This document shows positions 1,739-61,631 of a stretch of 64,000 nt of DNA, piece by piece. A model generated the notes under the pieces. It did not search any database and was not told where the DNA came from. It worked only from the letters and a program-made list of their open reading frames with translations. Origin of the DNA: Nitrospira sp. (GTDB lineage Bacteria > Nitrospirota > Nitrospiria > Nitrospirales > Nitrospiraceae); NCBI GenBank assembly GCA_035454625.1, contig DATIGP010000098.1:9391-73390 (forward strand). Reading direction: 5' to 3'. Position 1 is the first letter of the stretch; each line of letters starts with the position of its first letter. A program made the position numbers and the translations under genes.

Positions 1739-1747
1739 ATCTGAAGA

Positions 1748-1820
1748 TCGTGAAACGTTAAACGTGCAACGTGCAACGCGGCAATAAGGTGCGAACTGCG
1801 TTGCGGTTCACGGTTTACGA
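1748..1820. repeat. Intergenic inverted repeat built of degenerate heptamers (GTGAAAC/GTTAAAC/GTGCAAC x2, with complementary units on the right arm)
   Basis: tcgtgaaacgttaaacgtgcaacgtgcaacgc ... gcgttgcggttcacggtttacga, between the MFP stop and the RND start. Confidence 0.6.
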
Positions 1821-1835
1821 ATAACAAGTTAGGCC

Positions 1836-3002
1836 TTATAACGGCTGGGTTTGAACCGGTGTGCCGTCATGTACGAGGTCTTTCCCTGCGACGATGACCC
1901 GTTCATCACCCGTCAAACCTTTGGTGATTTCTACGCGATTGCCGCTAAGGGCCCCGATCTCGACATCCACTCGACGGGCTTTCCCCTCTCGGACGACATA
2001 GACATATTGTGTATCTTCCAGCCGGCTGACGGCATCAATGGGAATCTGCAACGCTTGGCGATGAGTTCCCACCATCACGTCGACCCGGGCGAACATTCCG
2101 CCTTTTAGCCGGCGATCCCGGTTAGGTAAGTCAATTTCCACGGTCATTGTACGTGTCGCGCGATTCAAAGCCTGGACGATGCGCGTGACGGTACCTTCGA
2201 ACAGGTGGTCCGGATACGCTTCCGCACGGAGCTCTGCCTTCTGGCCTATCTTTACCAGAGGAATGTCCCGCTCTACGACTTCGATCAACACCCGGACCGT
2301 ATTGATGTCGTGCAGACTCATGATGCCCCGCGACATTGTCGAGGTACTTGCGGTGGCGCTGCTTACATAGGCTCCGGTATCTAAGTTTCGCTCTGCGATA
2401 TAACCGGAAAATGGAGCTCGGATGTAAGAGTACGCTAAGTTCGTCTCCGCCTGGGCTAGGGCCACCTTCATTTGATCGACCTGCGCCTGCAGGGATTCGT
2501 GTGCGGCTTTGGCGGCGTCGAAGTTCACCTCCGCATTATCCAGGTCTTGCTGGGAGACGAATTGGTCCTTAATCAGGGCCTGCATGCGATCGAACGTAAT
2601 TTTGGCGTTGCGAACCACCGCATCCTGTTGCGAGACCTTGGCTTTGGCGGCCGAAAGGTTGGCTTTTGCCTGATTGACGGCATGTTGATAGTCGGTATGG
2701 TCGATTTCAACGAGCAACTGATTCGCCTTGACGAAATCACCCTTATCGACATGCAGTTTGGCGATGTATCCATCGACCCGGGAAAAAATATTGACCACTT
2801 GATTAGGGGAGATGTCCGCCGTGTAGGTTAGCCGAATATCCAGATCTTGCCGTAGGGCGGACATAGTGCCTACCGTGATAAGTCGTGTCTTCTTCGTGTC
2901 GCTTTTTGCACCCGTACTCAGGCGAAAGACTACAAGCGCCATGATCGAGATGAAGATGACAACCCCAAGCGTTAGAAACGGGTGTCGGACGAGTCGACTC
3001 AT
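1836..3002 (-). CDS. RND efflux periplasmic adaptor (membrane fusion protein)
   Basis: 388 aa ORF. N-terminal TM, lipoyl half-motifs (SRVDGYIAKLHVDKGDFVKANQLL; IRAPFSGYI), coiled hairpin, beta-barrel. Confidence 0.93.
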   Translation of the reverse strand: MSRLVRHPFLTLGVVIFISIMALVVFRLSTGAKSDTKKTRLITVGTMSALRQDLDIRLTYTADISPNQVVNIFSRVDGYIAKLHVDKGDFVKANQLLVEIDHTDYQHAVNQAKANLSAAKAKVSQQDAVVRNAKITFDRMQALIKDQFVSQQDLDNAEVNFDAAKAAHESLQAQVDQMKVALAQAETNLAYSYIRAPFSGYIAERNLDTGAYVSSATASTSTMSRGIMSLHDINTVRVLIEVVERDIPLVKIGQKAELRAEAYPDHLFEGTVTRIVQALNRATRTMTVEIDLPNRDRRLKGGMFARVDVMVGTHRQALQIPIDAVSRLEDTQYVYVVREGKARRVDVEIGALSGNRVEITKGLTGDERVIVAGKDLVHDGTPVQTQPL

Positions 3003-3021
3003 GTGGTGCCTGTCGGATCAG

Positions 3022-3664
3022 TTAGAAATCCGGCGGCTGCCGGACGAACCCGCCGAGGAAAAGAGACACATATTGGATCACTGTGGCTTCATGGGACAGG
3101 TGCATGGGTAATCCGAAGATATCATGCAGTAGCCGATGGTGGAGGATGACACCAAAGAAGGCTTTGGCGGCAAGCACGGGGTCGACTGGGCGGAACGCGC
3201 CATCCTCGATGCGTCGGCGAATGTAGCCGACTAAGTGATCGTGAAAGACACGATATTGCTGAAAAAACTTGTTGGAACAGCTCATGTCCTTCCAAGGTAC
3301 TGAAAAGGAGGAGGCGAAACAATGCCGGACCTGCCCCCCTCCTTACTCGATAGTCGGCGAGCAACGTGAAGAGCCGTTCGTCATCTCGTCTCTTGGTAGC
3401 TTCTTCGACAGCTTCCCGCAGCCCGGAATATTGAGCCTTTTCTGCAAGAATTGCGGTGTACAATGCCTGCTTGGTCGGAAAGTGTTTGAAGCGCAGTGCC
3501 TCACTGCCACCGGCTGCCTTGGTGATTTGGTTCGTGGTCGTTCCGGTAAAGCCGTTTGCGGCAAACACCGATGTCACAGCACTGATCAGGCTGGCTTGCC
3601 GCTCATGACCTGAGGTTCGTGAGGGTTGACGCCGTTGAGGGGATGATATCCGTGTTCTACCCAC
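3022..3664 (-). pseudogene. TetR/AcrR-family regulator split by a +1 frameshift
   Basis: The HTH (GFTGTTTNQITKAAGGSEALRFKHFPTK) is in ORF 3122..3718. The C-terminal domain (SNKFFQQYRVFHDHLVGYIRRRIEDGAFRPVDP) is in ORF 3022..3285 in a shifted frame. Junction ~3262-3278. Confidence 0.8.
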
Positions 3665-4613: not shown

Positions 4614-5021
4614 CTACATTAGTCGGAATCGGGTTCGTTGATCACTCACGGTGTTGTGGGAGATGCTTTTCCAAATGAAGGATTGCAGCCGCTTTCGGTG
4701 CTCTCGGGTCAGATCCATGAATCGGACAGAAAACTGACAACCTGACACCCACACAACATGCGCCGATTTCAATATAAGTTGGGGTAATCCATCGGGAAGT
4801 GCAATCGTAAGGGTCAATAATGTTCCCCGCGTCACTGGGCGGTCGCTGACGACATGGCACCCAGAAACAGATATGTTTTTTGTGAGGCCTTCGCCTTGGT
4901 GAGGTTGCGTCGGAACTTCCCCGACATAGCGCACTCGACACGTGACAGCGACACGTTCTGCATAACGGTTATCTAAAGGCACATAGGGTTTTCGGCCGTT
5001 CATCGTCAGTTTCACCATCAT
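4614..5021 (-). CDS. PilZ-domain protein
   Basis: RYAER and NISVSG motifs; VVWVSGCQFSVRF. Confidence 0.82.
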   Translation of the reverse strand: MMVKLTMNGRKPYVPLDNRYAERVAVTCRVRYVGEVPTQPHQGEGLTKNISVSGCHVVSDRPVTRGTLLTLTIALPDGLPQLILKSAHVVWVSGCQFSVRFMDLTREHRKRLQSFIWKSISHNTVSDQRTRFRLM

Positions 5022-5153
5022 ATCCTTGTCTACAATCTTTTCCCACCCAATTCAGCAATATGGTTCGGCCACGAGGAGCGACCTGATACACGATCTATGA
5101 AGAAAAGAATATCTTCGCAGGCGGGAGTGGTACTTCCGTACGATGAAAACAAA

Positions 5154-6872
5154 TTACTGCCGGATCTTTGCCCAGGCTTTTTGGTATTCCTCGAAGGAAT
5201 CGACCTCCATCCATCCCTTGAAAATCGGTACAGCTTGGGTGTGATGGCCCTGGTCAATCAGCTCTTGCAGCATATCAGTAAAAGAGGCTTTGGACAGGCT
5301 TGCTGATTCGTGGAACGGGGATGACTCATGTTGTTTCTGGACGCGGTGATAGCACTCGCGAAGGGCTTGAGTTCCTTTCTCCGAGAACATGGCCATACCG
5401 ATGAATTCCCCATGCGCCTGTTCGCGCGGAAGTTGTTGGCCGATCTTCACCACCTGGTGCTCACCTTCCGGCATGACAAATCGGGACAAATAACTTTTGC
5501 CGGGTGGGGTGGCCAGTGAGACAAGGTCCGGATTAAGATGAGTCGGTTGAATATTCCGTTGTTCCTGATCAAACCAGGCTAAATCAACAACCAACGCAAT
5601 GTCGGCGGGGCTCTTGAGCAATTTCTCAAGAATCGAGGTATCAAAGATGATATCGCCGTACAGGACGATGGTCCGCCCGCGCAACTCATTTTCGGCACAA
5701 AAGAGCGAAACGAGCTCGCCCGTTTCCTCGTAACGGTCGTTATCGTAGTAGCGGATGTTGGGGAGCGAAATGGCTTCTTTTTTATACCCGCGAACCAAGG
5801 CGATTTCTTTGATGTCGCATTCGTTGAGCGCGCTGACCTGGCGATCGAGGATCGTTCGCCCTTTAATGTCGAGCAAGCACTTCGGCTTGTCTTCGATCAA
5901 CGGCAGGAGCTGTTTTTCGAATCCGGCGGCGGCGATAATCGCCGTAATTCGTTCGCTACCCATCGGCAAGAACCGTTTCTCATCTTGCTCCATTTCCGGG
6001 ACGCCGACGATGTCGTACACTTGAGGTAGCGTGACGATTCGGTCGTTGGCCGCGCCGGGGCGCGAGTCCTTCTTGATGAGATCCAACGTGTCCGTCATTG
6101 CTTGAATTGCGGCCCGTACCGGTTGGTTGGCATAGATAATGATCTTCGCACCGGCTTCTTCCATTTCCGCCGCAGTGGTCTGATCGAAAATCGTCGGAAC
6201 AACGACCAGCGGGACGCGTCCGGACCACATTTTGTACACGGCCTTCAGCTCGTCGAATTTTTTCGATTTCGAATGGATCAGGATTGCGTCCGCTCCCGCG
6301 TCGGCATACGCTTCGGCCCGCCTCAAGGCTTCCTCTTGTCCCCAACCGGCGATGAGAGCCTCCGTCCTGGCGATAACCATGAACTCCGGGGAAGTTTGAG
6401 CGGCTTTGGCCGCTCGAATCTTGCCGCAGTGTTCCTCAATGGGGATCAATTCGCGTCGAACGCCCGCGTAGAAACTGCAGCGTTTTGGATAGACGTTGTC
6501 TTCAATACAAATGGCAGCCACGCCGGCTCGCTCACGGTCTGTGACGGTCCGCATGACGTTCAGCGCGTTGCCGTAACCGGTGTCGCAGTCCGCGATCACG
6601 GGAATGCTCACGGCCTCAACGATATTGCGTTCGATGTCGAGCTGCTCGCTCGAAGTGATAAAACTGGCGTCAGGGATGCATTTAAGCGAGGCGGAAATGG
6701 CAAAGCCGCTCGCCCAGACACCGTCGAAGCCGGCGCGTTCGATGAGACGGGCGCTGAGTGCATCGTGCGCACCGACTACTCTCAAGGCCCCCGGCTTTTT
6801 TAATGCAGCTCGAAGTTTTGCGGCGTTGGTCATCAAGGACAACATGATGGGAAAGCGTGTGGCTGTTGTCAA
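5154..6872 (-). CDS. PEP mutase / isocitrate-lyase superfamily enzyme fused to a C-terminal nucleotidyltransferase domain (probable start 6833)
   Basis: GAHDALSA, WASG, ADCDTGYG, ARTEALIAGWG, DAILIHSK, VPT and YANQ match the PepM/phosphonopyruvate hydrolase clade. The C-terminal half has IIAAAG..KPKCLL..KG, YGDIIF and WMEVDSFEEY. Confidence 0.88.
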   Translation of the reverse strand: MTTATRFPIMLSLMTNAAKLRAALKKPGALRVVGAHDALSARLIERAGFDGVWASGFAISASLKCIPDASFITSSEQLDIERNIVEAVSIPVIADCDTGYGNALNVMRTVTDRERAGVAAICIEDNVYPKRCSFYAGVRRELIPIEEHCGKIRAAKAAQTSPEFMVIARTEALIAGWGQEEALRRAEAYADAGADAILIHSKSKKFDELKAVYKMWSGRVPLVVVPTIFDQTTAAEMEEAGAKIIIYANQPVRAAIQAMTDTLDLIKKDSRPGAANDRIVTLPQVYDIVGVPEMEQDEKRFLPMGSERITAIIAAAGFEKQLLPLIEDKPKCLLDIKGRTILDRQVSALNECDIKEIALVRGYKKEAISLPNIRYYDNDRYEETGELVSLFCAENELRGRTIVLYGDIIFDTSILEKLLKSPADIALVVDLAWFDQEQRNIQPTHLNPDLVSLATPPGKSYLSRFVMPEGEHQVVKIGQQLPREQAHGEFIGMAMFSEKGTQALRECYHRVQKQHESSPFHESASLSKASFTDMLQELIDQGHHTQAVPIFKGWMEVDSFEEYQKAWAKIRQ

Positions 6873-6910
6873 TGAAAACTTTTTCCGGTCCTGGAGTAAG
6901 CAGCGTCGAA

Positions 6911-7435
6911 CTACTCCGCGGAATCGGTAATGTCATCGTTGAACCGTGGGGCGAGCGTGCGACTATCGAGGAAAATATAGCCACGCTCTGTGCCGCCCTG
7001 ATAGGTGAGGTTGATTTCAGTGTCGCTTCCACGCCAGTTGTACTGCTGGGTGAGGCCGCGCGCCATTTGTCCGGGAACGCGCTCGAGCCGACCGAATCGA
7101 CTTTCCAAGAAGCTCAGCATCTGCCGATGGACTTGGTCTCCTTGATATCGAATGATGACGCGCGCGAATTGGTCGTCCACCGCGACATAGAGAACGTTGC
7201 TCGTTTCGATTCCCGCGAAAGATGACGGTTCGGTCTTGCGGAGATATTCCGCGATATGCGGACCTGCGTGTAGCGGTTCCAGATCAGGACGCATGGACAG
7301 GGAGGATCCCCAAGGAATATCGTGAAATCCTTTCGGGTCATTCGTCATAGGGACCGCCCATACTGGGCTGATCAGAGCCGCGATCATCATGACGAACGGC
7401 CACGTATGGGATGCTGATCGGATGGGCTCGATCAT
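6911..7435 (-). CDS. Hypothetical exported protein
   Basis: 195 aa ORF, likely start MIEPIRS. Hydrophobic signal-like stretch (FVMMIAALISPVWA) followed by a soluble domain (NDPKGFHDIPWG). Confidence 0.65.
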   Translation of the reverse strand: MIEPIRSASHTWPFVMMIAALISPVWAVPMTNDPKGFHDIPWGSSLSMRPDLEPLHAGPHIAEYLRKTEPSSFAGIETSNVLYVAVDDQFARVIIRYQGDQVHRQMLSFLESRFGRLERVPGQMARGLTQQYNWRGSDTEINLTYQGGTERGYIFLDSRTLAPRFNDDITDSAE

Positions 7436-53266: not shown

Positions 53267-53392
53267 TCTTCCTCAATAACCGCGGGGACACATCAGCCTC
53301 TTAGCAATGGGTCGGAGACCGGAGTACCATGCTGCCTTGACGGGAGCGTTCACGATGAGCGATCCTCTCGCTGAGTCCTCAGTCTAAGGCAT

Positions 53393-54154
53393 GTGGCCCA
53401 AGTCACACCAATGCTCGACTCGCTCGCGAATGCGTTTGCGTGGAAAGGGATCGCCGTCTATTGGGGAATCGGCCTGCTTTTTTTCGCGGCAGAGTATTGG
53501 TGGCCCACACGTCTGATCCCCTATAGTCAAGTATTCCTGCAGGATCTGGGGGCACTCACCACGTATCAGGTCTTCTTTGTCTTTGCGGCACAACTGGCCG
53601 ATCGAATCCCTTCTCCTTATTACTCCTACTGGCGGTGGCAAGCACTTCCATTCGCTTTCAAGCTGGTGGTATTTCTGTTGGTCATTGACGGACTCGCATA
53701 TTGGATGCATCGGCTTTGGCATACGTCGGGGGGCTGGCCGATCCATCGATGGCACCATGCGCCCACCGAACTTTACTGGCTGGCAGGTGTCCGGGCGAGC
53801 TTTCCACAAATCGTCCTTGCGAATATCCCTTATCTGTTGGCCTTCCCACTCCTCAAACCGGTGCCGGCACTTTTCTTTCCGATCTATGGCTATATGCTGG
53901 TCCTCACCAATAACTGGATGCACATGAACGTGACCTGGCAATCGCGAAAACTGGAATGGCTCTTCGTCACGCCTCGCTACCATCGCGTGCATCACCTAAG
54001 AGAGATCGGGAGGGCTGGGGCGAACTTCGGGGTCCTCTTTACCGTGTGGGATCGGTTGTTCGGAACATATGTCGATCCTGAGCTGGTGGATTTGAAAGGG
54101 CCGTACGGGATTCAGGAAACGGTCCATCCAGTCCGCATGGCAGTCGGGGTCTGA
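53393..54154 (+). CDS. Sterol desaturase / fatty-acid hydroxylase family protein
   Basis: His boxes YWMHRLWH, HRWHH, WMH and HRVHH; NFG...WDRLFGT. Confidence 0.88.
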   Translation: MAQVTPMLDSLANAFAWKGIAVYWGIGLLFFAAEYWWPTRLIPYSQVFLQDLGALTTYQVFFVFAAQLADRIPSPYYSYWRWQALPFAFKLVVFLLVIDGLAYWMHRLWHTSGGWPIHRWHHAPTELYWLAGVRASFPQIVLANIPYLLAFPLLKPVPALFFPIYGYMLVLTNNWMHMNVTWQSRKLEWLFVTPRYHRVHHLREIGRAGANFGVLFTVWDRLFGTYVDPELVDLKGPYGIQETVHPVRMAVGV

Positions 54155-54362
54155 ATCGGAGAAGTGATTCTTGATCAACCGAGACCCGCGATCTCTGCGT
54201 TTTTCCCTCTATCCGATGTGAAGCCCGCAAAGCTGTTAGCTCTGCCGTTTGTCCAACCGCGACCAATGCCACCCGGTCATCGATCGCAGCATCCGGCCGA
54301 GGATCTCGTGAGACAGGGTCCAAGATATCGCCCTACCTCAGGCAGATACCATATGAACGGAC

Positions 54363-54400
54363 TTGCCGAGAGTGCCAGCGCCTGCTATTGTCTATACAAT
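54363..54400 (+). promoter_or_regulatory. TA promoter TTGCCG-N17-TATTGT overlapped by palindrome ATTGT-N4-ACAAT
   Basis: Read directly at 54363-54400, upstream of the antitoxin ATG at 54421. Confidence 0.5.
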
Positions 54401-54420
54401 TGCCATACAGGTGGAGAGAC

Positions 54421-54702
54421 ATGAGTTCAACTAATCTGCTCAGAAATGCTAAGCCGGTTACTGTGCGAGAGGCTCAAGCCCAACTTTCTAAGTTGATTCG
54501 CTCAAAATCGCCTTCCATGGTGCTCTCCCATGGCAAGCCGGTCTCTTTTCTGGTCCCCTATGACGATATGCTCGATCTGGTCGAAGCCCTCGATGAGCTG
54601 AAAGATCAGCAGTTGCTCAAAGAAATCGAGCGAGCACGGACCGAATATGTGCGAGGTGGAGCAGTTCCCGCCGAACGACTCTTTAAAAAAATGGGACTCT
54701 AG
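54421..54702 (+). CDS. Type II antitoxin, Phd/YefM family
   Basis: VTVREAQAQLSKLI..P.MVLSHGKPVSFLVPYDD and an acidic C-terminus; directly upstream of a RelE-like toxin. Confidence 0.8.
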   Translation: MSSTNLLRNAKPVTVREAQAQLSKLIRSKSPSMVLSHGKPVSFLVPYDDMLDLVEALDELKDQQLLKEIERARTEYVRGGAVPAERLFKKMGL

Positions 54703-55002
54703 TTGGGGTACGGGGTCGTCTTTCCCAGCGAACGAGTCGAGCGGTCATTCCAGAAAGCGCTATCCAAGATTCCGGCCGACTATCAAGCTGCCATCGTTGC
54801 GGCGATCAGGGCTTTGGGCGCCAACCCACGGCCTGAAGGGAAACGGACAAATAGGCTCACGGGCCAGATCATCATCTCACGGTTCACGGCAGAGTATCGT
54901 TTGAGAATCGGTCCATATCGTGTGCTCTATGATGTCGATGACCAGAATAAGAAAGTGGTGTTGCTCAAACTAGCGAAGCGAGACGAGCAGACCTACCGGT
55001 GA
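54703..55002 (+). CDS. Type II toxin, RelE/ParE family
   Basis: NPRPEG, YRLRIGPYRVLYDVDD, LAKR..Y. TTG start abuts the antitoxin stop. Confidence 0.85.
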   Translation: MGYGVVFPSERVERSFQKALSKIPADYQAAIVAAIRALGANPRPEGKRTNRLTGQIIISRFTAEYRLRIGPYRVLYDVDDQNKKVVLLKLAKRDEQTYR

Positions 55003-55133
55003 TGGTATATCAGGAGATGGCGAGCTTCCGTTGTAGTCGGTGTGCGGGTAGTTCAGGCCATGCACGATTCAAGGCCCGCCCGCATTAATCGAGAGCCTTG
55101 CGGCGCTTATTCCTCAAATAGGAATCATCCCTG

Positions 55134-55700
55134 ATGAATGAGCGCTACTACAAACTAAAGAAAACGGTTCTCTTGACTGGTGCGGGGTTTTCAAAACCTT
55201 TTGGAGGATTCTTGGCTAGCGAAATGTGGTCTATCTTCTTTAACCGCCTCAGCTCCCCGGATCATTTGGGAATGCGGCATATCCTTCGTGGAAACTTGAA
55301 CTACGAGCTTGCTTATGCAGAGGTCATCGCGGGTGAATATGCTCAAAGCGAGAAAGAATATTTCACCAAATGTCTAATGGAAGCCTATGCTGATCTGGAT
55401 CGTTCCTTATGTGAGATAACCTATAACAAGCGAGCATTTATTCAGCCGCTCCGCACGTTTATCGATTTGTTTGCTGGAGAGGATAGAGAAAGAGGATTTA
55501 TCTTCACTCTTAATCAGAATCTTCTCATTGAAAGATTTTATAGCAATCACAACTTTCTGCTTCAAATTCCCTCACTACATCATACAGATTGGTTTCGGGG
55601 CACGATGGACCGGGCTGATCTTCCCCAAGTCGATATGCCACCGAATCAACAACTTGATAGAGATAAAGGGGAATTCTGGGCAAAAGGAAAGAGCACGTGA
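55134..55700 (+). pseudogene. Truncated SIR2-like (SIR2_2) domain protein
   Basis: VLLTGAGFS...FIFTLNQNLLIER Rossmann/SIR2 N-half. Ends at 188 aa before the usual KLHGS motif. AT-rich. Confidence 0.55.
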
Positions 55701-55883
55701 CTTCATAACCCGACTCCTGGTTATTGCTCTTCCAAAATTTGAGATCCATCGTCTTCGTTACTTCGCCATTGATGGAATTATGCCCCTTTGCCGGTCAGCG
55801 GACGGGGTCTCCGTCGAAATGCCGGTTTCTTTGAGACGCTGCGGTCGTTCGCGATTGTGTGAGCTACGCGATATATGAGCTTC

Positions 55884-56456
55884 CTATGCGGCGAGTTTGT
55901 CGAGGATGGTCTTTGAGAGAGCCGTATCGGCCTTCAGGGTCTCGCGCATGTGTTCGAGTGCGGAGCGGTTGGCATGGGGATCGATGGATACGGTGCAGTC
56001 GGCCGGGACTGCCACGTGGAAGTTCCGCATGTAGGCATCGGCCGCGGTGAAGAGCACACAGTTGTCGCCCGCAACCCCGGTGAGGATGACTTGCTGGACG
56101 TTAAGATAACGGAGCAACAGCTCCAACGGGGTCGCAAAAAATCCTGAGTGCTTGGGTTTCAAAACGAAGTAGTCGTCTTCCTCCGGCGTCAAGACCTCCG
56201 CGATGCGTCTCCCTCGGCAGTCGCCCTCCAAACACCGGTCCACAAGCGTGCGGAAATCCGACCGCCACTTGCCGAAGTTGTCGTTCACATACAAGACCGG
56301 CCACCCTGCGGCCTTGACGCGTTGTTTGAGCGTCGCGATGTTCCGGGCGGTCTGTTCGATGGCTGGAAAGAATTTCTCGGCACCGTCGAACGTGAACTCA
56401 TTAATCATGTCGATGATGAGTAAACATGCCTGAGTGTGATCCGGTTGGCGAGGCAT
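55884..56456 (-). CDS. Isochorismatase-family cysteine hydrolase
   Basis: LLIIDMIN (Asp), KPKHSGF (Lys), GDNCV (Cys) triad. Confidence 0.92.
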   Translation of the reverse strand: MPRQPDHTQACLLIIDMINEFTFDGAEKFFPAIEQTARNIATLKQRVKAAGWPVLYVNDNFGKWRSDFRTLVDRCLEGDCRGRRIAEVLTPEEDDYFVLKPKHSGFFATPLELLLRYLNVQQVILTGVAGDNCVLFTAADAYMRNFHVAVPADCTVSIDPHANRSALEHMRETLKADTALSKTILDKLAA

Positions 56457-57100
56457 TATGAAGCCGCCTGTGTCTGGAGAAATTGCTTGATTCGTTTCAG
56501 ATCATCGATGAAGCGGCGATATTCTTCTTCACGCTGCGCCGCTTCCAGATGTCGAAGAATGGCCGATGGGTGGACGGTCACAAAGACGTTCGAGGCGATG
56601 GATGTGTCCCAAGGTCGTCCTCGCAGTTCATTCAAACGAACCGCCTTCCTAAACACGGATTGGGCGGCCGTCACGCCCAGGCATACGACGACACGCGGTT
56701 TCACGACCTGCACCTCGGCCTCAAGCCAAGGGCGACAGGCGGCGATTTCGGAAGCAGAAGGTTTCTTGTGTTTGCGGCGCTTGCCGAGCGGTTCCCATTT
56801 GAAATGCTTCACGGCATTCGTGACATACAGGCTCTCCCGCACCATTCCCACATCTGCCAATGCCTGGTCCAAGATCTTGCCGGCCGGTCCGACAAAAGGA
56901 TGGCCCACCTGATCTTCCTGATCGCCCGGTTGCTCCCCGACCAACATAATCGCCGTGTGAGCCGCGCCCTCTCCAAACACAGTTTGTGTGGCTCGTTTAT
57001 ACAAATCGCAACCGGTACAAGCCGAGGCGGCTTGTTGCAGGTGTGGGATGGTCAGTTTGATGGGAATGAATTGGGCGGCTGATCTGGCAAGGCGTCGCAT
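56456..57100 (-). CDS. udgX: UdgX-like family-4 uracil-DNA glycosylase / uracil-binding protein
   Basis: CTGC Fe-S ligands, GEQPGDQED..PFVGPAG, NAVKHFKW..GKRRKHKKP (R-loop), ACRPWL, TVHPSAILR. Confidence 0.85.
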   Translation of the reverse strand: MRRLARSAAQFIPIKLTIPHLQQAASACTGCDLYKRATQTVFGEGAAHTAIMLVGEQPGDQEDQVGHPFVGPAGKILDQALADVGMVRESLYVTNAVKHFKWEPLGKRRKHKKPSASEIAACRPWLEAEVQVVKPRVVVCLGVTAAQSVFRKAVRLNELRGRPWDTSIASNVFVTVHPSAILRHLEAAQREEEYRRFIDDLKRIKQFLQTQAAS

Positions 57101-60100
57101 GATTGACCATACCGCGTTTCTTGCATAAGGGGCAGCGGGTGATTTCCCTCGTCCGTCGATTCCAGCAGGTGCAGATCCGACACAGTCAGGGTAACGACTC
57201 CGAACGTTTCTTCCACCAGCCCGCGGACCACATAGGGCCGGTTGGGTGAGAGCAGATGGCAGCAGCGGCGATAGACGTCGGGAAACAGGGTGGCATCGTA
57301 GAGGGCTGTGACATCTTCGAGGGTAATGAATTCCATGGCGTGGCCGTGCTTGGTCTCCGCTGACTTCTCTGTGATCAGTAACCCGACCATGATGATGCGC
57401 TGATCGACGAATCGATGCATCTGGGAGGCCGGCACCGGCCGTAGCCGTTCGATCTGTTTACGGTAGAGGGCCAGCGGATGGCAGGTGGCCAGGAAGCCGA
57501 ACGACTCAACCTCATGGGCTCGCTTCTGAACGGCTGAATAGTCGTCCGGAATCGGTAAGGAACGTGAAGTGACATCGTTTCCCGCATACACCCGCCACAT
57601 CAAGGCCGGTCTGGTCAGCTCGCCGGCGATGGAATCACAGCAGCCGGCGCGGATTAATGCTTGGGCAAGAGACGGCTCCGGCTTCACACGCCGCAGAAAG
57701 TCCTGAAACGACCGGTACGGACCATTCTGTGCACGTTCTTCGACGATCCTCTTGCCGAGTTCTTCCGGGATTGTCTTCACTTGCATCAAGCCCATCCTCA
57801 GCCGCTCGCCTTCGCCTCGGTAGGCCCAATCGCTTTCATTGATGTCCGGAAGGAGAACGGCCAATCCCATGCGCCTGGCTTCCGAGACGTACGCGAAGGT
57901 CGAATAAAAGCCGCCTCGATTGCTGATGACGGCGCCAATGAATTCCGCTGGGTAGTGAGTGCGGAGATACGCGGACTTGAACGACACCTGCGCATAGCTT
58001 GCCGAATGGGGCTTGCAAAAGCTGTAACCGGCAAAACTCATAATCATCTCCCAAATTCTACGGATTACTTCCGGTGATGCATGATTCTTTTCTGCTCCGC
58101 GGCAAAACTGATGATAATAGTCCCGCAGTTGCCGTTGCTTGTGCTTTTTACTGATGATCTTGCGCAGCTGATCTGCATCCTCGACGGAAAAATCCGCCAA
58201 CGCCATCGCCACCTTCGAAACGTCTTCCTGGTAGGTCATGATGCCGTGTGTTTCATCCAAAACTCCCTTCAGCTTAGGATGCCAAGATGCGCAGGAACCT
58301 GCTTGCGCTAGACGAATAAATTTTTCGACGAAGGGATTGGTGGCGGGCCTGACTAACGATGAGACCATGACGAGATAGTTGAAGACATCAGCCTCCGCGC
58401 GGCGACGCGGCGGCATGCCGGTCCACAGTTTTCTTAATAAAAGACGGGTGGCGGGTGATTCGATGTAGAAGCAGCCGATCGTGTCACCGCGTCGGATCGC
58501 GTCTTGCGTGGCGGCATCGTTCAGCGGGTCCCAGGTGGCATAGTCGATCTGCCGGCCCGTATGTTTGGCGATGGCCGCGAGAGCATCTCGAATCACGGCA
58601 AGCGATCGGTTGCCCAAGATGTCGATCTTCACGAGCCCGGCATCTTCCGTCTGGTCCTTTTCCCATTGGATAACGGGCAGCCCTTTCGCCGTGATCTCGA
58701 TCGGCACGTAGCGCCGGATCTCATCCGGTACGATAACGACTCCACCGCAGTGCATGGAAAGATGGCAGAAATGATTTTGGGCCTTCAATGCCGAGGCAAG
58801 GATCTCAGGCCAGGGCTCTTTCAATTTCAGCACCTGCGAGAGACGACAGAGCCATTGTGCGTTGGTCGGTGGACTAGAAAATCCGAGGAGAGTTTTTTGA
58901 CGTACAACAAGTGAAGACATCTTTCCGATCTCTTCAGCCGGCATACCGTACACCTTGGCGACTTCGCGAATGGCCGCCCTGAAGCCGAGGCTGTTCTGGT
59001 TCGCCACCATGGCGGCCTGGCGCTCGCCGTATTGGCCGAACACCCAGCTCAAAATGTCGTCGCGCTCGTCCCAGGCAAAATCGATGTCGATGTCCGGCGG
59101 ATCTTTCCGGCCGGGATTGAGAAATCGCTCGAAGAAGAGGTTGTGTTTGATCGGATCGACATGGGTGATGTTCAGGCAGTATGAAACGATCGAGGCTGCA
59201 ACCGAACCGCGTCCGCAGGTGGTTCGTTTTAATGCCGTGACTATTTCCTCCACGACGAGAAAATAGTGAGCGAAGCGTTTTCCTCGGATGATCGCCAGTT
59301 CTTTTTCAATCCGGTCACGAACTCCTCGCGTGATGACGCCGTATCGATTCTGTGCGCCGGCATAGGTTTTTCCTTTGAGCGTCATGAAGGCTTCTTCGTC
59401 GGTCAGTCGGCGAAAGGCAGGAAAGATTGTCTCGCCAAAACGCCAGTCGCTGTGACAGGCCTCGGCAATGCGGATGCTGTTTTCCAAGGCATCCGGAACG
59501 TGGGGGAACCGGGAGGCCATGAGCGCGGACGGCATGAGCCATTGGCTGGGTGTACAACACGCCTCTTCCCGCAGCCGTGACAGAGTCGTGTTCAGAGCAA
59601 TCGCGCGCAGGAGACGATGCGTGGCAAAGTCGTCCGCACGAGAAAAGTACACCCGATTGGTGGCGACAGGCGGGAGATCGATTCGGCGGCTGAAGCAAAG
59701 TGTATCGTGCATAGCCGGCCCTGGTGTCAACTCAACATAAAGATCTTGCCGCGAGTCTTTGGCCCAAGCGATGAGTGCCGGTTCATCGTCCGTGAAGACG
59801 ATCAGTCCGTCGCGATAGCGGGAGACTGACGAGAGGAAGTCGAATGAGGGATTACAGTGGCGTTCCGACAGAAGGCGACAAAGGTTCGCATAGCCGTCCG
59901 GTGTTTTGGCCAGCAAGACGGTGCGATGGTCCTCGGTCGTCAACTCGGCGCCGAGAATCGGCCGGAGACCCTGTTGCTTGGCCTGCTCGACAAATCGGAT
60001 CGCTCCGTACAATCCGTTCGTATCGGTCAATGCTATGGACGGCGATCCTTGTCGCTGGGCCGTGAGGCAAAGTTCTTCCAGTGGCGATACGCCGCGCATC

Positions 60101-60168
60101 GGCGAGTAATCCGAATGGACATGGAGGTGGACGAACTGGGCCGTCTTCATTTTACGCGTATTATTCAT
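57052..60168 (-). CDS. dnaE2: Error-prone DNA polymerase III alpha (DnaE2/ImuC-like)
   Basis: PHP domain HLHVHSDYS, RGS..AS, PPDIDIDF, KIDILG, F..YSFCKPH, OB fold. About 1040 aa without a tau-binding tail, adjacent to imuB. Confidence 0.9.
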   Translation of the reverse strand: MNNTRKMKTAQFVHLHVHSDYSPMRGVSPLEELCLTAQRQGSPSIALTDTNGLYGAIRFVEQAKQQGLRPILGAELTTEDHRTVLLAKTPDGYANLCRLLSERHCNPSFDFLSSVSRYRDGLIVFTDDEPALIAWAKDSRQDLYVELTPGPAMHDTLCFSRRIDLPPVATNRVYFSRADDFATHRLLRAIALNTTLSRLREEACCTPSQWLMPSALMASRFPHVPDALENSIRIAEACHSDWRFGETIFPAFRRLTDEEAFMTLKGKTYAGAQNRYGVITRGVRDRIEKELAIIRGKRFAHYFLVVEEIVTALKRTTCGRGSVAASIVSYCLNITHVDPIKHNLFFERFLNPGRKDPPDIDIDFAWDERDDILSWVFGQYGERQAAMVANQNSLGFRAAIREVAKVYGMPAEEIGKMSSLVVRQKTLLGFSSPPTNAQWLCRLSQVLKLKEPWPEILASALKAQNHFCHLSMHCGGVVIVPDEIRRYVPIEITAKGLPVIQWEKDQTEDAGLVKIDILGNRSLAVIRDALAAIAKHTGRQIDYATWDPLNDAATQDAIRRGDTIGCFYIESPATRLLLRKLWTGMPPRRRAEADVFNYLVMVSSLVRPATNPFVEKFIRLAQAGSCASWHPKLKGVLDETHGIMTYQEDVSKVAMALADFSVEDADQLRKIISKKHKQRQLRDYYHQFCRGAEKNHASPEVIRRIWEMIMSFAGYSFCKPHSASYAQVSFKSAYLRTHYPAEFIGAVISNRGGFYSTFAYVSEARRMGLAVLLPDINESDWAYRGEGERLRMGLMQVKTIPEELGKRIVEERAQNGPYRSFQDFLRRVKPEPSLAQALIRAGCCDSIAGELTRPALMWRVYAGNDVTSRSLPIPDDYSAVQKRAHEVESFGFLATCHPLALYRKQIERLRPVPASQMHRFVDQRIIMVGLLITEKSAETKHGHAMEFITLEDVTALYDATLFPDVYRRCCHLLSPNRPYVVRGLVEETFGVVTLTVSDLHLLESTDEGNHPLPLMQETRYGQSCDALPDQPPNSFPSN

Positions 60169-60232
60169 GAGCGGTTCTGCTGCAATCGTGGATTCGCGGC
60201 TGCGACAAGCTGGCATGCGGCTCCACGGCATG

Positions 60233-61540
60233 TCAGCAGGCGGGCTCGCCGCTCGGTCGGTCAACATACTGTTTCGAGTATGTCTCCTTCCCTCCCGGAT
60301 TCACGCGCCTGTCTCGCCTGGCGACTTCGCGATTTCGCGACGAACCGTCATGAATAGTGCGGGTTAACGTCCTTCCCCAGGACAGGGCCTGTTCGCCGAA
60401 TTTTGCGCGAACCTGATCCAGTGCCAGCGAGAGGCGGTGAGAGCGGGAAAGCACGACGGATTCAGACTGGTCGAAGAGCGAAAGCTGCCGGGCCGGTAAT
60501 TCCAGCCGACTGACCTGAAGCGTCAACCGTGTAAGGCGCACCCGTCTGCGAAAACATCGGTAGAACAGGTCTGTCAGCACAGGCTGGAGATCGATCTCCC
60601 AGTAGGTGCCGTGAAGCAGTGTCTCATGAACGGTCTGCTCGACATGGTCGCTATGACGAACGGTCAGCGAGATATGGCGACACATCCGCTGCCGTTGTCG
60701 AAGCGTGGCGCAAATCTGCTCCGATAATCGGTAGAGCCGACCGAACAAGAGCCGATCATCCACTTCATCCGGGTCGAGATGAATGGAGCATTCGATCATC
60801 GGTTGCGCGATCGGTGGGTGTACCGGGGAGGGATCGATCCCCAGGGCCCAGTCGTGCAGCAGGTTGGCAGGAGTGCCGAGGACGACCCGGAGATGTGCCA
60901 ACGAGACCGAGGCAATCGCGCCGAGAGTAAGGAGGTTTAAATCCTCCAACCGCTGCAAAATCCGTGGGGTGTGAGCACGGTGAAGGCCGGGAAGCAACAT
61001 GGTCGGCAACGGGGCGAGGAAAGGTTGCTCGCATCCGGAGTGGATCGACAACACTTGCAGTGGTTTCATGAGTGTCGTTGCGGCCAATTGCGAGACCAGC
61101 TTGTTTCCCGCCAATCCGATCGTACTCGGCCATCCTTGCCGATGTGCCAGCTCTCGACTGATACGGGTTGCCGTATCGAGGGGAGGACCAAACAGTCGAG
61201 TTGTGCCGGTGAGGTCCAAGAAGAGCGAACCGGGCCTGATCGATTCCCAAGCCGGTGCAAAAGATGAGATATGGTGTTGCAGCTCGCGATGGGCGGCTTG
61301 AGAGAGTGATGAATCCGGAGGGATTATCCGTAGACCGGGGCAGATCAGACGCGCCAGATCCGTCGGCATCCCCGGGTGTAGGCCCTCGTGAAACGCTTCC
61401 ATAGAAATCTCTCGAATGACCGCACGCGGCGTATGCATGGGTGCCACGGCCACCGGTCTGTTCCGCAGCCTGCTATCAGCGGCACGGGCCAATACGATGC
61501 TAAAAGCAGGAATCTGTAGACAGACAATATGGCGATCCAT
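60233..61540 (-). CDS. imuB: ImuB-like catalytically inactive Y-family polymerase
   Basis: Y-family fold (RPVAV, GLHPGM..A..ICP, IGLAGNKLVSQLA). Catalytic acids are replaced (CLQIPAF; SIRPGSLFLD). Beta-clamp motif QLSLF. Confidence 0.85.
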   Translation of the reverse strand: MDRHIVCLQIPAFSIVLARAADSRLRNRPVAVAPMHTPRAVIREISMEAFHEGLHPGMPTDLARLICPGLRIIPPDSSLSQAAHRELQHHISSFAPAWESIRPGSLFLDLTGTTRLFGPPLDTATRISRELAHRQGWPSTIGLAGNKLVSQLAATTLMKPLQVLSIHSGCEQPFLAPLPTMLLPGLHRAHTPRILQRLEDLNLLTLGAIASVSLAHLRVVLGTPANLLHDWALGIDPSPVHPPIAQPMIECSIHLDPDEVDDRLLFGRLYRLSEQICATLRQRQRMCRHISLTVRHSDHVEQTVHETLLHGTYWEIDLQPVLTDLFYRCFRRRVRLTRLTLQVSRLELPARQLSLFDQSESVVLSRSHRLSLALDQVRAKFGEQALSWGRTLTRTIHDGSSRNREVARRDRRVNPGGKETYSKQYVDRPSGEPAC

Positions 61541-61550
61541 CTCAATTAAG

Positions 61551-61565
61551 GTAACCAATGGTTAC
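61551..61565. promoter_or_regulatory. Perfect palindrome GTAACC-N3-GGTTAC immediately upstream of imuB (candidate repressor operator)
   Basis: Seen at 61551-61565. A -35-like TTGACG on the minus strand (61586-61581) places the -10 region over it. Confidence 0.55.
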
Positions 61566-61631
61566 AGTAAAATTGGCCTCCGTCAAGTACGTAGAAAAAC
61601 GGAGCCGGAGGCTGGCGTCAGCCTGCCTTGA

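What the first reader, a model, noticed from the sequence alone, without database searches (positions are those of the whole stretch)
55884..61565. imuB-dnaE2-udgX-isochorismatase: an ImuA-less mutasome wired to a uracil-trapping protein
Seen: four co-oriented, overlapping or abutting genes: inactive Y-family ImuB with a QLSLF clamp motif, DnaE2 with intact catalytic Asp, UdgX-like protein and Cys-hydrolase. There is no imuA/sulA/recA-like gene or lexA, and DnaE2 lacks the usual C-terminal (S/T/G)R(D/N)F motif. Established: ImuABC performs damage-induced mutagenesis; mycobacterial UdgX excises uracil and stays covalently bound to the abasic site; UdgX genes usually sit with a radical-SAM/TIGR03915 pair, absent here. 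Inference: a dedicated module that caps uracil-derived abasic sites and bypasses them by translesion synthesis. This would suit a nitrifier exposed to nitrite/NO-driven cytosine deamination.
Basis: partly seen in the sequence, partly recalled or inferred. Interest (0 to 1): 0.7.

Follow-up and report, generated by a model that had tools for sequence, protein, structure and literature searches.

The report
SOS polymerase operon carrying UdgX
A Nitrospira operon under an SOS-type repressor joins an error-prone DNA polymerase pair to UdgX, an enzyme that removes uracil and bonds itself to the DNA. The same pairing recurs in another phylum, which gives a testable clue to UdgX's still unknown role.

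Summary
All four genes are present as described. The "ImuB" is not a canonical ImuB. It is a 393-aa-type dead Y-family scaffold (QLSLF clamp motif, RecA-N-terminus-like tail, no ImuB-C domain) and is orthologous to the Nitrospira japonica "gbDinB2-like iPolY". The polymerase is a DnaE2B. The ImuA-less iPolY-DnaE2B-RecA class was already predicted in print (NAR 2019, 2026).

UdgX carries every class motif (GEQPG, KRRKH, HPSAILR). Its linkage is not sporadic:
- In 301 Nitrospiraceae genomes, at least 23 of about 36 orthologs lie directly after dnaE2. N. moscoviensis and N. japonica are among them.
- About half of the cassettes have lost udgX.
- The Cys-hydrolase occurs only behind udgX.
- In metagenomes, a separate UdgX clade labelled Acidobacteriota sits back-to-back with canonical imuA-imuB-dnaE2.

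A conserved operator, TGTAACCATTGGWTAC, precedes the operon in every genome examined. It also precedes the only LexA-like gene, which encodes an XRE-HTH/S24 protein. In this genome that second operon also encodes a dead RadA-like ATPase, which is not an ImuA.

Best reading: a damage-induced cap-and-bypass module. No expression data could be obtained. The nitrifier-specific rationale is not supported.

The parts
61551..61566 (-). Operator TGTAACCATTGGTTAC. It overlaps the -10 position, 14 nt downstream of a TTGACG -35 box (61581-61586) and 10 nt upstream of the imuB-like ATG.
   Evidence: Sequence read. The 16-mer TGTAACCATTGGWTAC is conserved at the same place in 24 related loci from several genera, although the flanks have diverged. 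It is also present in N. moscoviensis. The same motif precedes the XRE-HTH/S24 repressor gene in the own genome and in 12 of 12 other genomes. A PWM scan of the own genome gives only these two strong sites.
60233..61540 (-). The homologous part is 60362-61540 (393 aa). It has a QLSLF clamp motif and a RecA-N-terminus-like tail and lacks an ImuB-C domain.
   Evidence: Pfam IMS + IMS_C. The DinB models score far below their cut-offs. Catalytic residues are replaced, and canonical ImuBs carry about 120 further residues. The tail matches the own RecA N-terminus, with 1 of 5000 shuffles scoring as high. It is 58.5% identical to the N. japonica protein classed as 'gbDinB2-like' in the supplement of PMC12926913.
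60151..60364 (-). 214-nt insertion at the iPolY/dnaE2 junction, specific to this genome. It removes the usual iPolY stop codon and adds 42 codons.
   Evidence: blastn against the closest relatives L009 and L020 shows the flanks contiguous there. No second copy exists in the genome.
57052..60267 (-). DnaE2B-type error-prone C-family polymerase. The likely true start is near 60147 (MKTAQF...).
   Evidence: Pfam PHP / DNA_pol3_alpha / finger / HHH_6. NF004225 'error-prone DNA polymerase' scores 576 bits against a cut-off of 939, whereas canonical DnaE2s score 1206-1230 bits. There is no C-terminal SHDFH. The replicative DnaE lies elsewhere on contig C81. The ortholog of N. japonica SLM47931 is classed as DnaE2B.
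56456..57100 (-). UdgX: a uracil-excising glycosylase that crosslinks to the abasic site. Its start lies 49 nt inside dnaE2.
   Evidence: TIGR03914 scores 271 bits against a cut-off of 190. phmmer to the M. smegmatis UdgX structures gives E = 3e-52 with KRRKH aligned to KRRIH. GEQPG, K107-R109-H111 and HPS are invariant in 14 aligned sequences.
55884..56456 (-). Isochorismatase-family cysteine hydrolase, start-stop coupled to udgX (TAATG).
   Evidence: PF00857 scores 131 bits. The closest solved structure is 3eef, an N-carbamoylsarcosine-amidase-related protein, with the Asp and Cys motifs aligned. The junction was read. Orthologs sit only behind udgX: 12 of 12 loci that carry the hydrolase, against 0 of 9 cassettes without udgX.

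Best explanation
This is a damage-inducible four-gene tolerance operon of Nitrospira.

Regulation. An autocleavable XRE-HTH/S24 (LexA-like) repressor binds TGTAACCATTGGWTAC over the -10 region. RecA-stimulated cleavage would derepress the operon.

Products:
1. A dead Y-family scaffold that binds the beta-clamp through QLSLF and RecA, or a RecA-like protein, through a RecA-N-terminus-like tail.
2. A DnaE2B polymerase. Together with the scaffold it forms the published ImuA-less 'iPolY-DnaE2B-RecA' mutasome class.
3. UdgX.
4. A cysteine hydrolase that occurs only together with UdgX.

Proposed mechanism. UdgX excises uracil and stays covalently bound to the abasic sugar through the KRRKH histidine. 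Uracil is expected to arise mainly in single-stranded or gapped DNA exposed by damage. The protein cap would shield the abasic site from strand cleavage. The capped site, or its remnant, would then be tolerated by the co-expressed mutasome and RecA. The hydrolase may process the adduct.

What is shown: gene identities, motifs, operon architecture, the conserved operator, and conserved and recurrent linkage.

What is inferred: induction by damage, crosslinking by this particular protein, cooperation between UdgX and the polymerase, and any role of the hydrolase.
For: Identities and motifs.

Published class: PMC6511836 and PMC12926913 with its supplement. The N. japonica exemplar is the ortholog, and udgX follows dnaE2 there too.

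Linkage within Nitrospiraceae. About 36 stand-alone UdgX orthologs were found in 301 genomes. At least 23 lie 3.0-3.7 kb after the scaffold gene on the same strand. Most of the rest sit at contig ends. The same four genes occur in N. moscoviensis CP011801.1. Identities of the three proteins fall together across genera, which fits vertical co-inheritance.

Second architecture. Twelve further loci carry dnaE2-imuB-imuA on one strand and udgX on the other, with a canonical DnaE2 (NF004225, 1206-1230 bits). Close relatives of the L058 UdgX are labelled Candidatus Acidoferrum / Acidoferrales. Nine of 27 metagenome UdgX loci with at least 4.6 kb of upstream sequence have dnaE2 nearby. In the UdgX tree the two architectures fall in different clades.

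Regulation. The repressor has VAAG/SP, GESM and a Lys.

Experimental precedent. In E. coli, UdgX + Ugi is toxic without recA, recB, ruvA/C, dinB or umuDC (PMC4787834).

Analogy. Genes for SRAP, another protein that crosslinks to abasic sites, neighbour translesion polymerase operons (PMC3765255). The own genome has no SRAP.
Against: - There are no expression or biochemical data.
- About half of the orthologous cassettes lack udgX, and one has a udgX pseudogene remnant (L034). The polymerase pair therefore works without it.
- The reverse also occurs. udgX + hydrolase stay intact where dnaE2 is largely deleted (L015) or the scaffold gene is absent (L036). udgX stands alone in L035 and L037.
- A whole-protein crosslink is a poor template for any polymerase, so bypass would need prior proteolysis or removal, for which nothing is shown.
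- The hydrolase is absent from the cassettes of three genera (g2, g18, g30).
Confidence: 0.6

Rival explanations
1. UdgX and the hydrolase are merely fellow members of a small SOS regulon. They are induced together with the polymerases but act on their own. They might protect or repair uracil and abasic sites genome-wide under stress, or clean up dUMP put in by the error-prone polymerase, with no hand-over to DnaE2.
For: SOS control of UDG-containing repair operons (radical SAM + UDG) is reported for Verrucomicrobia, Alphaproteobacteria and Bacteroidetes. The authors of PMC8565304 conclude that UDGs may be a common SOS feature. The modules are lost independently in both directions (L015, L034, L035, L036, L037). 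Half of the cassettes lack udgX.
Against: In Nitrospiraceae udgX is not just in the regulon. It overlaps dnaE2 by 49 nt and has kept that position across genera. A different UdgX clade adjoins a different type of mutasome. In the own genome the regulon contains no other repair gene, and recA has no site.
Confidence: 0.25
2. The module is a mutation generator. UdgX turns uracils into non-instructive capped abasic sites on purpose. DnaE2 then inserts any base opposite them, raising C-to-N changes under stress, much as deaminase + glycosylase + translesion polymerase do in antibody hypermutation.
For: The search listed C-to-G base-editor papers that mention UdgX (for example 10.1101/2020.07.21.213827). 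I did not read them, so how UdgX is used there is not confirmed here. The linkage is to mutagenic polymerases in two architectures.
Against: No deaminase gene is in or next to the operon. UdgX acts once and is consumed, so it is an expensive mutator. There is no evidence on mutation spectra.
Confidence: 0.1
3. It is an ordinary ImuA-ImuB-DnaE2 system whose imuA simply lies elsewhere in the genome.
For: A RecA-superfamily protein with a degenerate P-loop (GHPAASK) is encoded in the repressor's operon on contig C206, under the same operator. Its model has a RadA/Rad51 core, with pLDDT above 90 over about residues 60-235 and Foldseek E = 5e-11. It is somewhat enriched in genomes with this cassette: 30 of 60 against 58 of 241, my hand count.
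Against: The scaffold lacks the ImuB-C domain that contributes to binding ImuA and DnaE2 in the canonical model (PMC12926913). All 21 family members hit RadA/Rad51 models and none hits ImuA. Profile comparison with real ImuAs gives 8% probability. NF033429 finds only RecA in the genome. In the own genus 35 genomes have the scaffold without this protein and 14 have the protein without the scaffold.
Confidence: 0.03
4. The udgX extension is a specific adaptation of nitrite oxidisers to nitrite/NO-driven cytosine deamination.
For: Nitrous acid deaminates DNA bases, and nitrifiers produce it (PMC13705206). Acidified nitrite worsened UdgX-dependent toxicity in recA-deficient E. coli (PMC4787834).
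Against: About half of the Nitrospiraceae cassettes have lost udgX. The pairing also occurs in contigs whose UdgX close relatives are labelled Acidobacteriota, which are not nitrifiers.
Confidence: 0.1

Closest known systems
iPolY(gbDinB2-like)-DnaE2B-RecA predicted mutasome (Timinskas & Venclovas 2019, PMC6511836; NAR 2026, PMC12926913; modelled example from Nitrospira japonica)
   Same: The same two genes. The scaffold is 58.5% and the polymerase 68.6% identical to the N. japonica pair. Both have dead catalytic residues, a clamp motif and a RecA-NT tail, and both lack ImuB-C and ImuA.
   Different: The main texts of both papers contain no occurrence of 'uracil', and the 2019 paper none of 'glycosylase'. 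The udgX that overlaps dnaE2, the hydrolase and the operator are therefore not part of the described system. The class itself is computational only.
Canonical ImuA-ImuB-DnaE2 (ImuABC) SOS mutagenesis cassette
   Same: A dead Y-family scaffold plus a second Pol III alpha homolog, under an S24-type repressor.
   Different: There is no ImuA and no ImuB-C domain. DnaE2 scores below the NF004225 cut-off and lacks the C-terminal SHDFH. The regulator has an XRE-type HTH instead of the LexA winged helix.
Mycobacterium smegmatis UdgX (PDB 6AIL, 6AJO, 6IOD; PMC4787834, PMC10359453)
   Same: E = 3e-52. Motif A GEQPG, R-loop KRRxH with the crosslinking His, and motif B HPS(S/A)xxR are all present.
   Different: The papers read here describe no polymerase-linked genomic context for the mycobacterial gene. 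Its physiological role is stated to be largely unknown. Here the gene is the third cistron of a polymerase operon.
SRAP / YedK / HMCES abasic-site crosslinking proteins next to translesion polymerase operons (Aravind et al. 2013, PMC3765255)
   Same: A protein that bonds covalently to abasic sites, encoded beside SOS mutagenic polymerases. This is the closest functional parallel.
   Different: The fold and chemistry are unrelated (Cys thiazolidine against His-C1'). SRAP does not excise a base and can reverse its own link. The own genome has no SRAP.
SOS-regulated radical-SAM + TIGR03915/UDG pair (COG4277-COG1573; PMC8565304)
   Same: A UdgX-family domain under SOS control.
   Different: That pair is present elsewhere in this genome (contig C195). 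None of the strong operator sites lies on that contig. The operon copy is stand-alone, has no radical-SAM partner and is linked to polymerases.
Non-canonical S24 SOS repressors with minimal polymerase regulons (HdiR, UmuDAb, Bacteroidetes CI-like LexA; PMC8565304)
   Same: An HTH_3 + Peptidase_S24 repressor with an Ala-Gly site and a Ser/Lys dyad, controlling mainly error-prone polymerases.
   Different: The lineage (Nitrospiraceae) and the operator differ. Binding and cleavage are not tested.

Membership tests
Canonical ImuB | Y-family fold with lost catalytic carboxylates | tested here: met
   Pfam IMS + IMS_C. D..D reads Q..P and DE reads GS against the genome's own DinB.
Canonical ImuB | Beta-clamp-binding motif followed by a RecA-NT motif | tested here: met
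   QLSLF is present. The tail matches the RecA N-terminus with 1 of 5000 shuffles scoring as high.
Canonical ImuB | C-terminal ImuB-C beta-barrel domain | tested here: not met
   Orthologs end at 393-397 aa, right after the RecA-NT motif. Canonical ImuBs aligned here carry about 120 more residues.
Canonical ImuB | Partner ImuA encoded in the cassette or genome | tested here: not met
   NF033429 finds only RecA. The RadA-like protein on contig C206 is not an ImuA.
gbDinB2-like iPolY / DnaE2B-iPolY-RecA system | Orthology to a published member and the same gene order | tested here: met
   The L019 scaffold starts with the stretch of N. japonica SLM47932 quoted in the supplement. It is 58.5% / 68.6% identical to the window's pair and syntenic beside rpsF-ssb.
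DnaE2A (ImuC) error-prone polymerase | NCBIfam NF004225 above its cut-off, and the C-terminal S-x-D-F-H motif | tested here: not met
   576 bits against a cut-off of 939. Canonical examples score 1206-1230 bits. SHDFH is present in 5 of 5 canonical proteins and absent here and in 8 orthologs.
C-family polymerase, active | Catalytic Asp triad | tested here: met
   PDIDIDF and KIDILG are present in the translation. The positions were assigned from knowledge of E. coli DnaE D401/D403/D555, not by a structural alignment.
UdgX | TIGR03914 above its cut-off | tested here: met
   271 bits against 190.
UdgX | Motif A GEQPG, R-loop KRRxH with His, motif B HPS(S/A)(L/V)(L/V)R | tested here: met
   All are aligned to the M. 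smegmatis UdgX structures and invariant in 14 sequences. The motif definitions come from PMC10359453.
UdgX | Covalent complex with DNA after uracil excision | not testable with these tools
   Needs a gel-shift assay of the purified protein on uracil-containing oligonucleotides.
Radical-SAM / TIGR03915-linked UdgX | Adjacent TIGR03916 radical SAM protein and a TIGR03915 domain | tested here: not met
   Both are absent at this locus. They are present on contig C195 with a second, fused UdgX domain.
Isochorismatase-family cysteine hydrolase | PF00857 above its cut-off, with the Asp and Cys motifs of the catalytic triad | tested here: met
   131 bits against 27. IIDMINEF and GDNCV align with the same motifs of 3eef. 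The substrate is unknown.
LexA-type SOS regulon | Autocleavable S24 repressor whose operator precedes both its own gene and the target operon | tested here: met
   HTH_3 + Peptidase_S24, and TIGR00498 at 127 bits against 111. VAAG/SP, GESM and Lys are present. The operator is shared.
LexA-type SOS regulon | Induction by DNA damage, and binding of the repressor to the operator | not testable with these tools
EMSA and RT-qPCR are needed.

The most novel reading that the evidence does not exclude
UdgX is a dedicated accessory of DnaE2 mutasomes in several phyla. It would be a suicide cap for uracil-derived abasic sites, playing the part that SRAP/HMCES plays elsewhere. The gene that follows it would be the missing release or processing factor for the otherwise irreversible UdgX-DNA bond. 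That gene is a Cys-hydrolase in Nitrospira and a DUF72 protein, predicted to resemble endonuclease IV, in the Acidobacteriota-type loci.
Probability: 0.25. Interest if true: 0.8.

Novelty: new variant of a known kind. Interest (0 to 1): 0.62.

Why it matters
UdgX is used as a tool for mapping uracil in DNA. Its role in the cell is nevertheless stated to be largely unknown (PMC10359453). A conserved operon that places it behind an SOS-controlled error-prone polymerase gives a concrete, testable role. The independent back-to-back pairing with canonical imuABC in another phylum supports the same reading. The proposed role is to cap uracil-derived abasic sites during replication stress and hand them to translesion synthesis or to RecA.

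The finding also adds parts to a mutasome class known only from computation. These parts are a regulator with its operator, and two accessory genes. It names cultured strains that carry the whole operon, N. moscoviensis and N. japonica. The hydrolase occurs only behind udgX, and a DUF72 gene takes the same place elsewhere. This raises the question of whether enzymes exist that undo the UdgX-DNA link.

Tried and rejected
1. ImuA elsewhere. NF033429 in the own genome hit only RecA. The RadA-like protein on contig C206 looked like a candidate. It failed the profile comparison with real ImuAs (8% probability). All members hit RadA/Rad51 models rather than ImuA. Its co-occurrence with the cassette is weak.
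2. Small ORF between the repressor and the RadA-like gene as a stand-alone ImuB-C. It has no family hit. Its sequence looks helical to me by eye, not by prediction. It is conserved, at 45% identity with a distant relative, and its function is unknown.
3. Plasmid contexts of UdgX. The two inspected showed a radical-SAM pair in one and no polymerase in either, so they were not informative.
4. BLASTP of the scaffold tail against RecA found nothing. It was replaced by a local alignment with a shuffle test.
6. Literature. No paper in the library holds UdgX together with ImuB or DnaE2. Subscription journals are not covered, so this does not prove the pairing is unpublished.
7. Extra operator sites. 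The weaker PWM hits (C169, C96, C180) were not followed. The C169 site lies beside or within ORFs.

Full report
**Observation**

The window is contig C98 of a Nitrospira MAG (3.68 Mb, 92% complete). Four ORFs lie head to tail on the minus strand between 55884 and 61558.

- Pfam and NCBIfam name them as a Y-family polymerase homolog (IMS + IMS_C), a C-family polymerase, a UdgX-family protein (TIGR03914, 271 bits, cut-off 190) and an isochorismatase-family hydrolase.
- udgX starts 49 nt inside dnaE2. The hydrolase start shares a base with the udgX stop (TAATG).
- Upstream, on the other strand, lie rpsF and ssb, so no imuA-like gene precedes the cassette.

- Aligned with the genome's own DinB, the scaffold has Q..P for D..D and GS for DE. 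It carries QLSLF.
- DnaE2 keeps PDIDIDF and KIDILG. It lacks the C-terminal SHDFH that five canonical DnaE2s fetched here all have.
- UdgX aligns with the M. smegmatis UdgX structures at E = 3e-52, with GEQPG, KRRKH and HPSAILR in register. These residues are invariant in 14 aligned sequences.

**What the polymerase pair is**

Orthologs of the "ImuB" are 393-397 aa and stop right after the clamp motif and a short tail. Canonical ImuBs carry about 120 more residues, the ImuB-C domain. The tail (HRLSLALDQVRAKFGEQAL) matches the N-terminus of the genome's own RecA, and only 1 of 5000 shuffles scores as high.

In the window itself a 214-nt insertion (60151-60364) removed the stop codon and added 42 codons. 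The insertion is absent from the closest relative and unique in the genome.

The polymerase scores 576 bits on the "error-prone DNA polymerase" model, whose cut-off is 939. Canonical DnaE2s score 1206-1230 bits.

This matches a published class. Timinskas & Venclovas (2019, PMC6511836) and the 2026 NAR survey (PMC12926913) describe ImuA-less systems of an inactive Y-family protein with a RecA-NT motif plus DnaE2B and RecA. The 2026 supplement models the Nitrospira japonica system, with the Y-family protein labelled "gbDinB2-like". Locus L019 starts with the stretch of that protein quoted in the supplement, so it is that genome's cassette. It is the ortholog of the window's cassette (58.5% and 68.6% identity, same place beside rpsF-ssb), and udgX follows dnaE2 there as well. 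The word "uracil" does not occur in the main text of either paper.

**Is there an ImuA elsewhere?**

NF033429 finds only RecA in the genome. The operator search then led to contig C206, which holds three genes in a row.

- An HTH_3 + Peptidase_S24 repressor (TIGR00498, 127 bits; VAAG/SP, GESM, Lys).
- A small conserved ORF.
- A protein of about 245 aa whose family is annotated only as hypothetical.

The model of that third protein has a RadA/Rad51 ATPase core, with pLDDT above 90 over about residues 60-235 and Foldseek E = 5e-11. Its P-loop is degenerate (GHPAASK).

It is not an ImuA.

- All 21 aligned members hit RadA/Rad51 models and none hits ImuA.
- Profile comparison with real ImuAs gives 8% probability.
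- Across 301 Nitrospiraceae genomes it is present in 90, with only loose association to the cassette. In the own genus both genes occur in 16 genomes, this protein alone in 14, and the scaffold alone in 35 (my hand counts).

It is co-regulated with the cassette in this genome and could take the RecA-NT tail. It is an optional extra, not the missing subunit of a standard ImuABC.

**Regulation**

The 16-mer TGTAACCATTGGWTAC lies about 17 nt after a TTGAC(A) box and just before the scaffold gene.

- It is present at that place in all 24 related loci examined, from several genera, although the flanks have diverged completely. It is also present in N. moscoviensis.
- It precedes dnaE2 in a locus that has lost the scaffold gene (L036). 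It is mutated in a locus where both polymerase genes have decayed (L015).
- The same motif precedes the S24 repressor gene in the own genome and in 12 of 12 other genomes.
- The repressor ortholog is present in 17 of 18 genomes searched by handle, most of them single-contig assemblies. It is the only S24 protein that tblastn finds in the own genome.
- A PWM scan of the own genome gives two strong sites only, the two promoters. recA has none.

This is a minimal SOS-type regulon under a non-canonical S24 repressor. That kind is known from HdiR, UmuDAb and the Bacteroidetes repressors (PMC8565304).

**Is the udgX linkage sporadic?**

It is not. Two searches of 301 Nitrospiraceae genomes give about 36 stand-alone UdgX orthologs with at least 61% identity.

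- At least 23 lie 3.0-3.7 kb behind the scaffold gene on the same contig and strand.
- Most of the rest sit at contig ends.
- Two are clearly unlinked (L035, L037).

Fetched loci confirm the order scaffold-dnaE2-udgX in at least six genera. Identities of the three proteins fall together, which fits vertical co-inheritance.

About half of the orthologous cassettes lack udgX. One retains a udgX remnant (L034). This points to an old linkage with repeated loss.

The hydrolase follows udgX in 12 loci, among them N. moscoviensis CP011801.1. It is never present in the nine cassettes without udgX (L011, L013, L014, L028-L033). The three further hydrolase homologs whose contexts were looked up all sit in this position.

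**Beyond Nitrospira**

A metagenome scan with a UdgX alignment returned the 80 best loci.

- Three are Nitrospira-type cassettes.
- Ten more show a different layout, with dnaE2-imuB-imuA on one strand and udgX diverging from it.
- Three long contigs found through homologs show the same layout, with 105-130 bp between imuA and udgX.

In these loci DnaE2 is canonical, ImuB has its C-terminal domain, and ImuA hits RecA and ImuA models. Close relatives of the L058 UdgX carry the labels Candidatus Acidoferrum and Acidoferrales.

Of 27 loci with at least 4.6 kb of upstream sequence, nine have dnaE2. By my own rough estimate, random placement in a genome of several Mb would give a fraction of a percent.

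In a UdgX tree the co-oriented copies form one Nitrospiraceae clade. The divergent copies form one main clade (99/89 support) plus two separate instances.

The intergenic regions of several of these loci carry GTTC-N7-GTTC. From my own recollection this is the LexA box type of Acidobacteria and Alphaproteobacteria. I did not check that.

In eight loci of the Acidobacteriota-type group, udgX is followed within 121 nt by a DUF72 gene. DUF72 is predicted by others to resemble endonuclease IV (PMC3828134).

**How it most likely works**

*Shown.* The parts, their motifs, the operon structure, the shared operator and the conserved, recurrent linkage.

*Established elsewhere.*
- UdgX excises uracil and bonds through its loop histidine to C1' of the abasic sugar.
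- In E. coli, UdgX complexes are tolerated only with recA, recB, ruvA/C, dinB and umuDC (PMC4787834).
- SRAP proteins, which also crosslink to abasic sites, are encoded beside translesion polymerase operons (PMC3765255). This genome has no SRAP.

*Inferred.* On damage the repressor cleaves itself. The operon then delivers a clamp- and RecA-tethered DnaE2B together with UdgX. UdgX caps uracil-derived abasic sites in exposed DNA so that they are not cut into breaks. The capped site or its remnant is bypassed or repaired with RecA. The hydrolase may act on the adduct.

I put this at 0.6. The main rival, at 0.25, is that udgX is only a fellow regulon member that acts independently. That fits the independent losses and the published SOS control of other UDG operons. 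A mutation-generator reading (0.1) and a standard ImuABC (0.03) are less likely.

The nitrifier rationale is not supported as the driver. Many Nitrospira have lost udgX, and the same pairing occurs in contigs whose UdgX relatives are labelled Acidobacteriota.

**Novelty**

The polymerase pair is a member of a published, computational class. UdgX is an ordinary family member by sequence. The new elements are the operonic extension with UdgX and a hydrolase tied to UdgX, the operator with its regulator, and the second, independent architecture.

No paper in the searchable library holds UdgX together with ImuB or DnaE2. That library does not cover subscription journals.

Earlier notes of this scan report the same pairing in at least seven other genomes. 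I read them only after my own surveys. They agree with my results but are not independent proof.

Noticed in passing
window 60151-60364: A 214-nt insertion lies between the scaffold gene and dnaE2. It is absent from the closest relatives and has no second copy in the genome. It removes the scaffold's stop codon, adding 42 codons, and breaks the usual tight coupling of the two genes. Its origin is unknown, and a MAG assembly artefact is not excluded.
   Followed up: partly
G000 contig C206 (locus L008) 1602-3436: An operon under the same operator encodes three genes. They are an XRE-HTH/S24 LexA-like repressor (1621-2166), a small conserved ORF (about 2190-2434) and a RadA/Rad51-fold protein with a dead P-loop (about 2612-3436). 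The trio recurs in a distant relative (L017). The RadA-like family is annotated only as hypothetical and is present in 90 of 301 Nitrospiraceae genomes.
   Followed up: partly
Other Nitrospiraceae genomes, e.g. G125:C1:2500690-2502548 and G099:C1:2851563-2853297: A second, paralogous scaffold clade (42-47% identity, about 397 aa) has its own paralog of the S24 repressor immediately upstream. No UdgX ortholog (E <= 1e-40) lies beside any of the listed copies. The window's genome lacks this second cassette.
   Followed up: no
window 53384-55878: A stretch of about 2.6 kb lies between the operon's end and ychF, where N. moscoviensis has the two genes almost abutting. It holds a fatty-acid-hydroxylase-family gene (53393-54154), a Phd/YefM-ParE toxin-antitoxin pair (54388-55002) and a 188-aa ORF with no family hit (55134-55700).
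   Followed up: partly
L058 6626-7513; L132 8683-9570; also L057, L071, L072, L100, L112, L117: In the Acidobacteriota-type loci udgX is followed within 121 nt by a DUF72 gene, which others predict to resemble endonuclease IV. One database protein (P0186) carries both UDG and DUF72 Pfam domains.
   Followed up: partly
L015 10001-13906; L012; L036 4667-9217: The module decays in both directions. L015 has a fragmented scaffold gene, a largely deleted dnaE2 and a mutated operator, yet udgX and the hydrolase are intact. L012 has a fragmented dnaE2. L036 has no scaffold gene, and the operator leads straight into dnaE2-udgX-hydrolase.
   Followed up: partly
G000 contig C195 (locus L005) 4773-7428: The genome also has the usual radical-SAM protein (TIGR03916, 543 bits) followed by a TIGR03915-UdgX fusion (466 aa). 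It therefore carries two UdgX-family domains. This pair appears in only about 9 of 301 family genomes.
   Followed up: partly
L132 1-2048: In one Acidobacteriota-type contig a LigD primase-polymerase gene and an ATP-dependent ligase gene follow dnaE2 on the same strand.
   Followed up: no
L132-L134, L067, L087 intergenic imuA/udgX: A conserved GTT(T)CGCTTTTT(G/C)TTC(G/T)CC element of GTTC-N7-GTTC type lies in the short region between imuA and udgX, nearer to imuA. A conserved TTGTCAA lies nearer to udgX.
   Followed up: no
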